From NCBI RefSeq assembly GCF_009914755.1, contig NC_060931.1: DNA of 64,000 nucleotides. One strand, 5' to 3'. Made by a program: the position numbers and the translations under genes. A model generated the notes under the pieces. The model was not told where the DNA came from. It searched no databases and saw only the letters and a list, made by a program, of their open reading frames with translations. Shown piece after piece: positions 50,770-59,930 of this stretch. This stretch comes from the human T2T-CHM13v2.0 reference genome, Homo sapiens. How positions within the stretch are numbered: the first letter of the stretch is position 1; each line of letters begins with the position of its first letter.

Positions 50770-54900
<4,131 letters not shown>

Positions 54901-55408
54901 TGGATTAGAAAAATTCCTCCCTCTTTCTTGTGCCTCTGGGCCCTTGCATTGTGATTCTATCTTACGTAAATAAAGGGGGCTTTGCTCTCCTAATTGTGCC
55001 CACTGTTCTGTGCAGCGCGGACCGGCGCATGCAGCGAGCGGGGCTGCGAGGGCGCTGCTGTGGCCAGGCGTCTGGCATGCTGACCACGTCGCGCTGCTGT
55101 AAAGGAAACCTGCCCCGCGCAGCGGCGGTGGCTGGAGCGGGAGAAACCGGACTTTGTGCAACTTTGGCCATAGTGGCCATCCCATGAATCTGTTTACTAG
55201 CTTGGTGGTGGGTCCAACAGAGCTTGTTGCTCCCTAGCCGCTTGCTCGTGCCCTTGGTGGTTACCGGTAGTTAAGCTTAGGGCGCATAGGGCCCTCGTGG
55301 CTCGCCACCTCTCACGGTTCAGTACCCACGCTTCGAACGAGGGATGGGAGCAGGCGCCACGGCCGGCACCCCAGAGCCCTGCTGCCCCTTAGTTCGAGCG
55401 GCCATCCT

Positions 55409-55468
55409 CCTGTGGGGCTTGTGGGCAGCCTGTGGGGTTTGTGGGCGGCCTGTGGGGTTTGTGGGTGG
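55409..55468. repeat. 3 x 20-bp G-rich tandem repeat (CCTGTGGGGYTTGTGGGYRG)
   Basis: Units start at 55409, 55429 and 55449. Confidence 0.9.
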
Positions 55469-56034
55469 TCTAAGGAAAGAGTTGGGGCACTCAGGGGTCT
55501 GCTGTTTTTGCCCGTGGCCTTAACTCATCAGGGGAGGGTTTCTGCAGCAGAATCTCGGGCTCAGGGTTGGCGGTTAACGAGGGAGCAGCGGGGTCTTGGG
55601 GAGGGGGCTCGACACCCCTGAAGGTGCCCCCTAAAGGAGCCACTGTTAGAGGGGCACCCCATCTTTGTGGCCATGGCGGTGGTAGAGCGGCTGGGAGGGG
55701 CTCTGCGGCGAGCAAGGGAGCAGGCGGTAGGGGTTCTGCGGCGATGGGCGGGCTAGGGGCGGGGCGCGGGTGGGCTCTAAAAGTCGGTGCCCACTCGCTC
55801 CGCGCTGCCGCGGCAACCAGCACACCCCGGCACCTCCTCTGCGGCAGCTGCGCCTCGCAAGCGCAGTGCCGCAGCGCACGCCGGAGTGGCTGTAGCTGCC
55901 CGGCGCGGCGCCGCCCTGCGCGGGCTGTGGGCTGCGGGCTGCGCCCCCGCTGCTGGCCAGCTCTGCACGGCTGCGGGCTCTGCGGCGCCCGGTGCTCTGC
56001 AACGCTGCGGCGGGCGGCATGGGATAACGCGGCC

Positions 56035-56060
56035 ATGGTGCGCCGAGATCGCCTCCGCAG
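56035..56060 (+). CDS. MEST: MEST coding exon 1 (MVRRDRLR)
   Basis: gccATGG Kozak context, 26 nt, CAG|GTGAGT donor. Confidence 0.96.
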
Positions 56061-56275
56061 GTGAGTGTGCGGTGGGAACGAGGGGGTGTGGCTGGCGGCC
56101 CTGGGACTAGGGCGCAGGCGAGCGGAGGACTGTGTGCCCGTGTCCGAGCTGGGGCTGCCTCTGGGCGAAAACTCTACCGACAGGCGGCACGCATTCCGCG
56201 CCCGCTCTGCCTACTTGAGGAGGGGGTGTCACTCCTGCCCGCAATGGAATGTTCAGAACGCGGGACCTCCTTGGG

Positions 56276-56810
56276 TTAGGATTTCTAGACCCCGGGATCG
56301 TCGTGGTGAGATTTAGGATTTCTGGACCCCAGCGTCATCTTGATATGACTTAGGATCCATAATGACCCTGGTCTCACCCTGATGCGAATTGGGATTTTTA
56401 GATCCTGGCATCACCCTGGTGCGATTTAGGATTTTTATACTCAGTCATTGCTGCAGCATGATTTAGGATTTCTAACCCCCAGCATCGCCCTGGTTTGATT
56501 TAGGATATTTAGACTCCGGCTTCCCTCTGGTGCGATTCAGGATTCTTAGACTCCGCCGTTGCCGTGGCGCGATTTAGGATTTATAGATCCCGGCAAAGCC
56601 CTGGTGCGATGTAGGATTTTTAGAACCCCAGCATCGCTCTGGTGCGACTTAAAGGATAGGCCCCAGCATCGCCCTGGTGCGATGTAGGATTTTTAGAACC
56701 CCGGTATCTCCGTGGCGCACCTTAGGATTTCAAGAACGGGATAATCGCAGTGCCGAGATCGCCGCGGTGCAGCTTAGGATTTCAAGACCCAGGTATCACG
56801 GTGGCGGGAG
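56276..56810. repeat. Degenerate 37-bp tandem repeat, 14 units, in MEST intron 1 DMR
   Basis: TTAGGATT-like anchors at 56276, 56313, 56350, 56389, 56426, 56463, 56500, 56537, 56574, 56611, 56649, 56684, 56722, 56774. Confidence 0.92.
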
Positions 56811-59088
56811 TCACCGCAGTGACTAGAACTCGCAGTGCCCGTCAGCCGCCTTAAGTATTTTTCAGATTTCAGTAACAAGCGCGAGTGAGAACGGCGATGT
56901 GACCAAACTGTCATGTTGCGCAGGGATTGTTCACCTTGGTTTCGCGGGTTTTCAAAGTGGTTCGTCTCGCGGCGACGCCATCAGGTGGGCGGCAGGTTGG
57001 GTGGTATTATTACGGGAGTGTGTTTTTCTGTTTACAAGATGAAGAAATCAAGGCTCAGAAATTTCTGGAAAGTTTGTTACTGGAGTTTGCTTATTGTCTC
57101 CGCTCATGGCTCATCAAATAGTTGGGATTTTGGCCAAAAAATGTTTGCTTAACCCATTTTGCCTACTGACGGCTAGGTTGCTTCACTTCTAAAAATCCTA
57201 AAAGTTCATGGGGGCATTTTTACTGAGGTAATAAGACAAAAAATGGCCCCCTGAGAGGTTGCCTCTTTGCTTTCTTGGAGTAAGAGGAGGAGGGTGTGGA
57301 GGGGGGTGTCCAGGAGTGGAGTATGTTGGTCGATAGCCTCGTTTTTTAACCCCCCACTTTCCCTGAGCAGCGGCGGGGAAGCCTCCCCATTTGCCGCTCT
57401 GGCCGCCCCTCCCGGGGCTCTCTGCTGAGTCACTGCAGAGATTCAGCTGCTGGAACCCCGGGGATGAATGCGATGAGAAGCACTGGGGGAAAGGAGTAAT
57501 GAAATCTGCACATGAAAATGTATACATTGAAGTACAGGACAGATAGGGCTGGGCAAATGATCGTCAAAACCTAATGGTTTTTGTCATCTGACCTTTCAAG
57601 GAGATACTGGGATACAGCCTGCTATTGTTGGGTGAAAACTGTGATATAACCATCATGTTCTGGCACTTTTTTGAACCATTTCTAGTATTACCTTGAGAAG
57701 TAGGACCAAATGGTTCTATCCGTCTTATGGACAGGTACTTTGGAGAAAAAAAGAAATGACTGCCCTAATAATGCCTAAAAAATAGCCTGGGGAGCTGACA
57801 TTGTTTAAGAAACATGGTTATTTTACCACTGTAAAACCACAGGCTTGTTTTTAGATTTTAGCAAAAAGTATCAGGGATATGGGGGGGAAAAGTATCTTGT
57901 AAGTTGAGGAAGTTAGCGAACGGGTAGGTAGATTACAGGCAATAGGGAAGAATGTGTGTACAGACGGAAAGCCATTTCCCCCAGGGCTTTAGCAATTAAT
58001 TTATTTCAGCTCTATGACAACTCTAATTTTAGTTTTGGAGGGTATTATTTCCATTCTGGCTGTTTTGAGAGAACTTCCATTCTACTGACAATTCTTGATC
58101 TGTTGACCATCAGAAGTCATAGACTTGAAACAGAACGGTTTATAATTCCTGTTTGGCACTCCTTGTCAATGTGGATAAACTGACTTGTGCCTTTGAAGTC
58201 CTGGGCATGGGAGGGTTGGGTGTACCAACCAGTGCTCTTTTTCCAAAGACAAAATCAATTCTCACACGCTGGGTATGAGTTATGCCTTATCTGGGGGTGG
58301 GGGAGCATCTTAGGAAATTAAATGGAAACTTAAAGAGTCTGCTAAGAAAAGCAGAAATGTAATCTACCGCCTTGACCTCTCAAGAGATTAGATATTCAGG
58401 GTCATGACAAAGCTGCTTATGTTGGAATACACAGTGCAGCTATCTTACTTTCACAGACTGTTTACCCTGAGCAGTTTCTCAGCCCAAATCCAGAAAGGAG
58501 TACTAAATGGGGCTTCATTTAGGCAGGAGGGCTGAAAATCAGGAGTAGCTCTCTGCTTGAGGACATGTGATAAGTTACTACACACACACACTCTTTAAAA
58601 CATGAGATATAGCACATATATATTTTTTGAACATTTTACTGGTTGGGGGTAGTGGGTAGATGGTAGAGCTTTTGGAGTAAATAAGAAAGAAGTTATTTTT
58701 TTCCTGGGAAGCCTTGATAAAAGTCAACGAAAGAGTGTCCAGCATTTAAGTCATGTCCCTTTTATTTATATAAAGTCCTCTTCAGCAGGTATTGGGAAGA
58801 CCACAAGGGTAGGGGCTAAGGGGTTAAAGTCGGGGAGCAGAGGCAGAAGATTATATGTTGAAATAATGTATTTTTTTTCCTTAAGATTAGAATGATGAAC
58901 AAATATGGTGAGTGCTATGGCAGACAGAGGTTTGATTATAGTCTCGGTCAGCTTTGTGCCTATGTGAAGGGCAATGTAATCATTGCATGGTAACAGCAAT
59001 CTCCCACCCCATCTTACCAGGTTTTGGTTTGTAGATGAGTGGACAATGTTACCTGACTGCTTACAGTGGGTCTCTGCTTTTCCTACAG

Positions 59089-59836: not shown

Positions 59837-59930
59837 TGTTTTGAGCGGGGGTCAAGAGCAATAACGAAAAATGTTTGTCATAAACCGTTTTTCATTATTG
59901 CTCCTGACCTCCTCTCATTTGCTATATTCA
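59837..59930 (+). ncRNA. MIR335: pre-miR-335 in MEST intron 2 (5p 59852-59874, 3p 59888-59909)
   Basis: TCAAGAGCAATAACGAAAAATGT and TTTTTCATTATTGCTCCTGACC form complementary hairpin arms and are recognised as miR-335-5p and -3p. Confidence 0.96.

What the first reader, a model, noticed from the sequence alone, without database searches (positions are those of the whole stretch)
56276..56810. 14-unit, 37-bp degenerate array in the MEST DMR with fixed period, conserved core and internal dyad
Seen: approximate consensus TTAGGATTTYTAGACCCCRGCATCGCCCTGGTGCGAT. Nine of 14 units are exactly 37 bp despite heavy substitution. The (GCGA)T-TTAGGATTT junction is conserved while the rest drifts. The consensus holds a CpG-bearing inverted repeat ATCGC-N6-GCGAT (perfect CATCGC/GCGATG at 56667-56684). 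37 bp is ~3.5 helical turns, and four units (148 bp) approximate one nucleosome wrap. Established: tandem repeats are common at germline DMRs. Inference: a selected array of binding sites (e.g. for a KRAB zinc-finger or methyl-sensitive dimer) or a nucleosome-phasing element for imprint control.
Basis: partly seen in the sequence, partly recalled or inferred. Interest (0 to 1): 0.7.

Follow-up and report, generated by a model that had tools for sequence, protein, structure and literature searches.

The report
Old tandem repeat in MEST imprint
A real, single-copy run of 14 worn 37-base repeats sits inside the maternally methylated control region of the imprinted MEST gene; it is already listed in print and is likely an old, mostly drifting repeat, although its short head motif is somewhat better kept than chance and might be a protein-binding site.

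Summary
The array is real: 14 units at 56276-56810, nine of exactly 37 bp, single-copy in the genome, inside the published MEST DMR, with probes in units 1-2 about half methylated. It is already in print. A 2025 supplement trims this stretch from the MEST CpG island as a tandem repeat, and a 2007 table very probably lists it as 89% alike to a cattle repeat, with none in mouse.

The fixed period is what neutral decay gives (5 indels seen, 5.0 expected). The dyad is ordinary (20% of shuffled units have one; no covariation). There is no 10-bp nucleosome signal. GCGAT is not conserved, and there is no ZFP57 motif in the array.

Two residues survive. TAGGAT is better kept than other CpG-free columns (3 of 82 versus 59 of 294; scan-corrected P 0.003-0.11, not significant in interior units alone). 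A perfect inverted copy of the 14-base head lies 377 bp downstream.

Best reading: an old minisatellite that extends the imprinted CpG island and is likely methylated along with it (0.55). Rival: clustered sites for an unknown factor (0.25).

The parts
56276..56810 (+). Degenerate minisatellite of 14 units, period 37 bp; A/T-rich CpG-free head (columns 1-14) and C/G-rich tail with five deaminating CpG pairs; 31 CpGs
56277..56780 (+). TAGGAT head hexamer, exact in 11 of 14 units (first at 56277, last at 56775); the only over-conserved block
56667..56684 (.). Perfect 6-bp-arm inverted repeat in unit 11; not above chance
56334..56349 (.). Unit 2 dyad, 5 of 5 pairs kept with three two-sided changes, all transitions
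   Evidence: (P 0.006 by column shuffle, 0.07 by arm shuffle)
56722..56773 (+). Unit 13, 52 bp: a short head piece followed by a diverged unit
57188..57202 (-). Solo inverted copy of the unit head without tail; 15-base exact match to the majority unit, and the best head score in the window
56249..56274 (+). Possible further worn unit upstream, lacking GGAT (weak)
   Evidence: P 0.045 in 1000 shuffles
53826..56990 (.). Published MEST/MESTIT1 maternally methylated DMR (CpG island 54620-56991) that contains the array at its 3' end
   Evidence: PMC4053454 Table 1, mapped
55806..56189 (.). Six ZFP57 motifs (TGCCGC) upstream of the array; two more at 56989 and 57392; none inside it
   Evidence: PMC6317318 Table S1 also counts 8
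56165..56314 (+). Human MEST ChIP-qPCR amplicon of the ZNF445 study; covers the last upstream ZFP57 motif and unit 1
56976..56988 (-). CTCF-like site 165 bp downstream of the array, overlapping the end of an alternative MEST first exon (56923-56984)
   Evidence: the pattern was recalled and written after I had seen the site, so it is a lead only

Best explanation
The array is a single-copy 37-bp minisatellite inside the MEST imprinted CpG island that likely arose by local tandem duplication in an early placental mammal, has since drifted largely at neutral rates, and is likely methylated on the maternal allele along with the rest of the island rather than instructing the imprint. Shown: the repeat, its place in the DMR, half-methylation at three probes in units 1-2, a star-like spread of units with no recent homogenisation, CpG-type decay in the tail, a neutral indel rate, and ZFP57 motifs on both sides but not inside. 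Established for maternal germline DMRs and inferred here: transcription from an upstream promoter in the oocyte lays down methylation over the whole intragenic island, and ZFP57/ZNF445-KAP1 bound at the flanking motifs keeps it after fertilisation. On this reading the array adds about 0.5 kb and 31 CpGs to the island and needs no reader of its own. The better-kept TAGGAT would reflect a CpG-free head, the way units are recognised, and at most weak constraint.
For: Indels 5 observed versus 5.0 expected from 25 interspersed-repeat copies in the window (870 substitutions, 43 indel events). Columns of five CpG-type pairs differ at 40 of 140 cells versus 62 of 376 elsewhere, and 28 of those 40 are deamination-type. 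Pairwise identity is at most 84% and flat with distance, 0.64-0.70 over lags 1-7; tree supports are mostly under 60. Divergence from the majority is 20% versus 13% for those interspersed repeats, so the array is probably older than most of them. No relative elsewhere in the genome (and the listed rows of 24 and 37). No dyad, RNA-fold or 10-bp signal. With the paper's own TRF settings the human gene holds exactly two repeats scoring 100 or more, the second being this array, matching 'MEST human 2, mouse 0, cattle 1, H2/C1 89' in PMC2000230 Table 3. The Mest gDMR island is reported as new in the eutherian ancestor (PMC3217256). 8 of 23 imprinted islands with coordinates in PMC12307798 Table S3 have a repeat trimmed off, and that paper says the repeats share no sequence. 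KvDMR, IG-DMR and H19 carry their own unrelated arrays.
Against: TAGGAT differs at 3 of 82 cells versus 59 of 294 in the other columns outside the five CpG pairs (Fisher P 1.5e-4). Allowing for choosing the best six columns gives P 0.003-0.006 on counts, 0.04-0.05 on tree steps and 0.005, 0.035 or 0.11 in neutral simulations with CpG rates of 2x, 4x or 8x. Unit 11 keeps AGGAT despite a net 2-base loss. The inverted solo head is unlikely by chance: that 14-mer occurs 152 times in 3.1 Gb, and 0 of 115 overlapping 2-kb blocks elsewhere in the window match the unit for more than 12 bases, against 15 here. An 89% human-cattle match of consensus units fits drift from a common ancestor but also fits constraint. 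The ZNF445/KAP1 ChIP amplicon touches unit 1. A repeat array is needed for imprint maintenance at IG-DMR (as cited in PMC6947649).
Confidence: 0.55

Rival explanations
1. The CpG-free head (TTAGGATTTYTAGA) is a recognition site for an unidentified DNA-binding protein, multiplied 14 times by the duplication and present once more inverted downstream. The array would act as a multivalent platform that tunes the paternal promoter, the intronic promoter or the DMR's 3' border, with the CpG-rich tails making access allele-specific.
For: TAGGAT over-conservation; a head-only inverted copy at 57188-57202 with no tail in sequence unique in the genome; probable human-cattle conservation; position between the imprinted promoter and an alternative first exon with a CTCF-like site.
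Against: The signal vanishes in interior units 4-10 alone (2 of 42 versus 19 of 133, scan-corrected P 0.54) and is weak in the nine 37-bp units (P 0.16). Units were cut at GGAT, and the worn flanking units lack it. The 9- and 14-column heads are not over-conserved on tree steps (P 0.40, 0.55). The solo copy has P 0.06 in the most lenient test. The 14-mer is hardly enriched genome-wide (152 versus 129 for the backwards control). No cluster at KvDMR, IG-DMR or H19. No factor with this motif turned up in the searches, and no motif library was available.
Confidence: 0.25
2. Repetitiveness and CpG density as such, not a motif, help the maternal allele keep its methylation through early reprogramming, as proposed for other imprinted tandem repeats.
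For: PMC12307798 argues that imprinted repeats share no sequence and act through repetitiveness, and treats this stretch as MEST's repeat. The array carries 31 CpGs at observed/expected 0.90.
Against: Units are only 67% alike; fold energies equal shuffles (RNA z -0.30; no z below -1.7 among 12 units as DNA); no 8-10-bp CpG period (P 0.13); mouse lacks a detectable array yet imprints Mest; repeat deletions at several other ICRs did nothing (PMC6947649).
Confidence: 0.12
3. The conserved element works in RNA: repeated UAGG motifs in MEST intron 1 would bind hnRNP A1/A2-type proteins (motif recalled) and mask the many YAG acceptor mimics, and the inverted head could pair with a unit.
For: UAGG is the best-kept stretch and lies on the sense strand 216-750 bases after the exon 1 donor; each unit has two YAG triplets.
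Against: No splice form using the array is annotated; no stable fold; no Rfam match in the array; no RNA data examined.
Confidence: 0.05
4. One reading: a methyl-sensitive dimer on the ATCGC-N6-GCGAT dyad, or a nucleosome-phasing element of four units per wrap.
For: The dyad is in the majority unit and is perfect in 2 of 14 units; unit 2 keeps it through three two-sided changes (P 0.006-0.07).
Against: 20% of shuffled units have such a dyad; pairing across units equals chance (P 0.43); dyad columns are among the most changed; the three changes in unit 2 are transitions, two of the three pairs touching CpG columns; no 10-bp A/T period (P 0.99); the period needs no selection.
Confidence: 0.03

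Closest known systems
The MEST ICR tandem repeat in Mohan et al. 2025 (PMC12307798, Supplementary Table S3)
   Same: The island is listed as hg19 130,130,740-130,133,111 and 'without TR' as ending at 130,132,411, so the trimmed 700 bp (window 56292-56991) hold this array apart from its first 16 bases.
   Different: The table gives no unit, period or motif; the main text does not mention MEST.
MEST repeat H2/C1 in Khatib, Zaitoun and Kim 2007 (PMC2000230, Table 3)
   Same: Two human MEST repeats, the second 89% alike to the single cattle repeat, none in mouse; the same TRF settings give two here and the second is this array.
   Different: The identification is my inference: the supplement with the sequences could not be read, and the table does not mark the repeat as lying in a CpG island.
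IG-DMR tandem repeat of the DLK1-DIO3 domain
   Same: A short-unit array inside a germline DMR (18 bp x 8.9 in the human locus); the mouse array is reported as needed to maintain methylation (start of the abstract of PMC8120134).
   Different: Paternally methylated, younger-looking (87% matches), unrelated sequence, no TAGGAT cluster; function tested by deletion, which has not been found for the MEST array.
KvDMR1 (KCNQ1OT1) repeat arrays
   Same: Degenerate arrays (many rows at 72-75% matches, periods 26-52) in a maternally methylated, ZNF445/KAP1-bound island.
   Different: Unrelated sequence; some rows include ZFP57 motifs, the MEST array has none.
Clustered CTCF sites at H19 and YY1 sites at PEG3 (YY1 recalled)
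   Same: The model for the rival reading: repeats whose conserved core is a protein site.
   Different: There the factor is known and the core is conserved across species; here no factor is known and the signal is marginal.

Membership tests
Tandem repeats of imprinted germline DMRs | Head-to-tail repeat above chance | tested here: met
   TRF score 289; 12 motif hits versus 1.3 expected
Tandem repeats of imprinted germline DMRs | Inside or beside the CpG island of a germline DMR | tested here: met
   Inside window 53826-56990 by coordinate mapping
Tandem repeats of imprinted germline DMRs | Intermediate (allelic) methylation over the repeat | tested here: inconclusive
   Three probes in units 1-2 read 0.24-0.59 in 28 control samples; no probe for units 3-14 in that table; not allele-resolved
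Tandem repeats of imprinted germline DMRs | Locus-specific sequence, not shared with other ICRs | tested here: met
   One match in the genome; no related array at 3 of 3 other DMRs
Functional ICR repeats (IG-DMR type) | Deletion of the repeat alone disturbs the imprint | not testable with these tools
   The mouse deletions found (about 2 kb and 4.94 kb) remove the promoter, exon 1 and the CTCF site together
ZFP57 motif arrays | TGCCGC in the units | tested here: not met
   0 of 8 local motifs lie in the array
Clustered factor-binding repeats (CTCF/YY1 type) | Core more conserved than spacer among units | tested here: inconclusive
   P 0.003-0.11 by method; not significant in interior units
Clustered factor-binding repeats (CTCF/YY1 type) | Core conserved across species and bound by a known factor | not testable with these tools
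   No mammalian relatives, motif library or ChIP tracks are held; only the 89% human-cattle figure
Nucleosome-positioning sequences | About 10-bp periodicity of A/T dinucleotides | tested here: not met
   Power at 9.8-10.8 bp 0.21 versus null mean 0.91, P 0.99
Structured RNA or hairpin arrays | Fold better than shuffles, covariation, or a family match | tested here: not met
   z -0.30; paired cells P 0.43; 0 of 9 Rfam rows in the array
Active VNTR minisatellites | Near-identical neighbouring units | tested here: not met
   Highest pairwise identity 84%, neighbours 70%; length polymorphism in people was not testable

The most novel reading that the evidence does not exclude
The CpG-free TTAGGATTTYTAGA head is the site of a still unidentified eutherian DNA-binding protein. 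Fourteen phased copies plus one inverted copy bracket the intronic promoter and CTCF-like site at the 3' edge of the MEST imprint and form a locus-specific reader platform, kept in human and cattle and eroded in mouse, that explains part of how the human MEST imprint is bounded or protected apart from ZFP57 motifs.
Probability: 0.2. Interest if true: 0.6.

Novelty: already known. Interest (0 to 1): 0.2.

Why it matters
Whether tandem repeats at imprinting control regions do anything is an old open question, with deletion results both ways. MEST controls MEST and, by the mouse work, Klf14 imprinting, and is tied to Silver-Russell syndrome. The repeat itself is catalogued, so its presence is no surprise. 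What this check adds is narrower: the period, dyad and nucleosome ideas can be dropped, and any function should be sought in one short CpG-free head motif that also occurs inverted just downstream. That is a cheap, sharp test (mutate the heads, keep the CpGs). If a factor were found it would be a new locus-specific reader at a human imprint; if not, the array is a clean example of a passenger repeat.

Tried and rejected
Paralogues or a transposon source: a DNA search with the array found only itself. A 17-base junction motif gave 16 matches, 5 in the array and 11 isolated, control 8. Two periodic patterns gave 122 matches (100 listed) and 84 matches (all listed); the listed rows outside MEST are arrays with unrelated units (judged by eye). 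The tool warns that no match does not prove rarity.

Likeness to the window's SINE copies (Alu, recognised from memory): P 0.14. Origin from the end of MEST exon 1: a shared 12-mer with unit 13 is not significant (P 0.36). Further units downstream: P 0.10. A 5'-to-3' gradient of CpG loss: P 0.20. CpG spacing of 8-10 bp: P 0.13. Hairpin or RNA gene.

Shared motif at ZNF445-bound DMRs: 1 of 12 profile tests was notable, a single head-like site about 3 kb from the KvDMR primer, with no cluster. Mouse remnant: the published 3' guide at mouse Mest resembles the unit junction (score 6.6 versus 10-28 for true units, P about 0.02, noticed after the fact) but is not significant over the region (P 0.14), and the 5' guide scores nearly as well (5.2), so I do not count it.

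Known motifs compared by eye from memory (CTCF, DUX4, K50 homeodomain, HSF, BCL6, SMAD, Pol III B box) did not fit; no motif library was available, so this is not a test. A full-text search for the head motif gave 912 papers; none of the 40 listed concerned MEST.

Full report
1. Observation. The array is as described. TRF reports period 37, 12.2 copies, 67% matches and score 289 at 56276-56730. Cutting at the GGAT anchors gives 14 units to 56810, nine of them 37 bp. The head pattern has 12 hits in the window against 1.3 expected. Units differ from their majority at 102 of 516 cells. They are 46-84% alike with no trend by distance, so the array is old and no longer homogenised. It is single-copy as far as the searches reach.

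2. Setting. It lies in MEST intron 1, starting 216 bases after the exon 1 donor and ending 112 bases before an annotated alternative first exon. The hg19 island and DMR ends in PMC4053454 fall on CpGs at 1 of 1001 offsets, which puts the DMR at window 53826-56990 and the array at its 3' end. Three array probes in units 1-2 read 0.24-0.59 in 28 control samples of PMC7672439 Table S3, and the six family samples are not lower; that table has no probe further into the array. All eight local ZFP57 motifs are outside the array, six upstream and two downstream. PMC6317318 reports ZNF445, ZFP57 and KAP1 at MEST. Its ChIP amplicon maps to 56165-56314 and covers both a ZFP57 motif and unit 1, so it does not separate the two. 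In mouse a paternal CTCF site in the gDMR governs Klf14 imprinting (preprint 10.64898/2026.05.09.724006). A CTCF-like site lies at 56976-56988 here, outside the array (pattern written after seeing it).

3. Period: 25 interspersed-repeat copies in the window give 20 substitutions per indel event, which predicts 5.0 indels for the array; 5 are seen. Junction: GCGAT differs at 18 of 70 cells and is not conserved. Tail drift: five CpG-type pairs carry 40 of the 102 differences, 28 of them deamination-type. Dyad: 20% of 3000 shuffled units have a 5-bp-arm inverted repeat (4% for 6 bp, which the majority unit lacks). Paired cells number 44 of 70 against 43.1 by chance. Unit 2 keeps the dyad through three two-sided transitions (P 0.006 or 0.07 by two shuffles), an isolated case that common transitions or template switching (recalled mechanism) could give. 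Folding as RNA or DNA is no better than shuffles, and no Rfam family matches. Nucleosome: A/T dinucleotide power at 9.8-10.8 bp is lower than in 99% of shuffles, and the only period is the unit itself. At 3.5 turns, neighbouring T-tracts would face opposite ways (arithmetic). The match of four units to 148 bp has no further support.

4. What survives. TAGGAT differs at 3 of 82 cells against 59 of 294 in the other columns outside the five CpG pairs. Corrected for picking the best six columns, P is 0.003-0.006 on counts, 0.04-0.05 on tree steps and 0.005-0.11 in neutral simulations. Against this, it is not significant in units 4-10 (P 0.54) or in the nine 37-bp units (P 0.16). Units were also defined by this anchor, and the worn flanking units lack it. 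Second, a head-only inverted copy sits at 57188-57202, 377 bases downstream. It is the best head score in the window. The 14-mer occurs 152 times in 3.1 Gb, about 1e-4 expected within 1 kb either side, or about 0.004 if any of 37 start points is allowed (arithmetic). 0 of 115 overlapping 2-kb blocks elsewhere match the unit beyond 12 bases. A lenient alignment test gives P 0.06. It may be an old inverted duplicate or an independent site. Profile scans of KvDMR, IG-DMR and H19 (8.5-9 kb each) show no cluster of the motif; each has its own unrelated arrays.

5. What is in print. PMC12307798 Table S3 trims 700 bp from the MEST island as tandem repeat, starting at window 56292. PMC2000230 Table 3 lists two human, no mouse and one cattle MEST repeat, with H2/C1 at 89. 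Its TRF settings give exactly two over the human gene span, the second being this array, so H2 is very probably this array; the sequences are in a supplement I could not read. PMC3217256 states that the Mest gDMR island arose in the eutherian ancestor. PMC6947649 notes that repeats matter at IG-DMR but that deleting them at several other ICRs did nothing. I found no description of the unit, its head motif or a deletion of the array alone in ten searches; most subscription papers are outside the library.

What I saw of each paper. Passages plus parts 2-3 of 4: PMC2000230. Passages plus supplement rows or parts: PMC7672439, PMC6317318, PMC12307798 (file 2 whole). Passages plus one methods section: the Klf14 preprint. 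Passages only: PMC9255983, PMC13547231, PMC12758399, PMC4053454, PMC8928582, PMC3217256, PMC6947649, PMC9241299, PMC4839675. Listing and start of abstract: PMC8120134. Not seen, known only as cited: Hutter 2006, Saito 2018, Lewis 2004, Paoloni-Giacobino 2007.

6. Mechanism. Most likely (0.55) a 37-bp unit was amplified in tandem in an early placental mammal (inferred from 20% divergence, and the probable cattle match) and then left to drift, losing CpGs in the tail. It would be methylated in oocytes with the rest of the intragenic island by read-through transcription (established for maternal gDMRs; PMC8928582) and kept so by ZFP57/ZNF445-KAP1 bound beside it (inferred for the array). Mouse imprinting without a detectable array says the intact repeat is probably not required. 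Rivals: clustered sites for an unknown head-binding protein (0.25), repetitiveness aiding maintenance (0.12), an RNA-level UAGG array (0.05), dyad dimer or nucleosome phasing (0.03). No cross-species sequence, binding data or deletion could be examined, so function is neither shown nor excluded.

7. Verdict. A real and already catalogued repeat of a familiar kind. The striking features noted at first reading are mostly what neutral decay produces. Interest 0.2; the head-motif reading has probability about 0.2 and would merit 0.6.

Noticed in passing
window 55409-55465: A 20-bp repeat, 2.8 copies, 94% matches (TRF score 100), upstream of the imprinted promoter inside the DMR; probably 'H1' of PMC2000230 Table 3.
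   Followed up: partly
window 55685-55744: A 27-bp direct repeat at 33-bp spacing just upstream of the promoter, sharing a 13-mer with 55975-55987 in exon 1.
   Followed up: no
window 56021-56054 and 56738-56764: The end of MEST exon 1 and unit 13 share a 12-base and a 7-base word; not significant (P 0.36).
   Followed up: yes
window 56976-56994: A CTCF-like site overlaps the donor of the alternative first exon and abuts a ZFP57 motif at 56989; it could be the counterpart of the mouse gDMR CTCF site, which is also on the minus strand.
   Followed up: partly
window 54013-54026: A weak head-like site on the minus strand near the 5' end of the DMR (score 14.5, 15th in the window).
   Followed up: no
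window 54255-54274: Best match (15 of 20) of the published mouse 5' guide; about 2 kb upstream of the array, the size of the mouse deletion, but not significant (P 0.30).
   Followed up: partly
window 59839-59930: mir-335 precursor confirmed by Rfam (116 bits).
   Followed up: yes
L006 3794-4815: KvDMR region holds several degenerate arrays with periods 26-27 and 50-52.
   Followed up: no
L007 2390-2455, 3242-3282, 4791-5000: The IG-DMR 18-bp unit appears in three separate patches, not only in the main 8.9-copy array (likeness judged by eye).
   Followed up: no
G000 C11:69569893-69570440: An unrelated 30-bp CpG-bearing minisatellite that also contains TAGGATTT.
   Followed up: no
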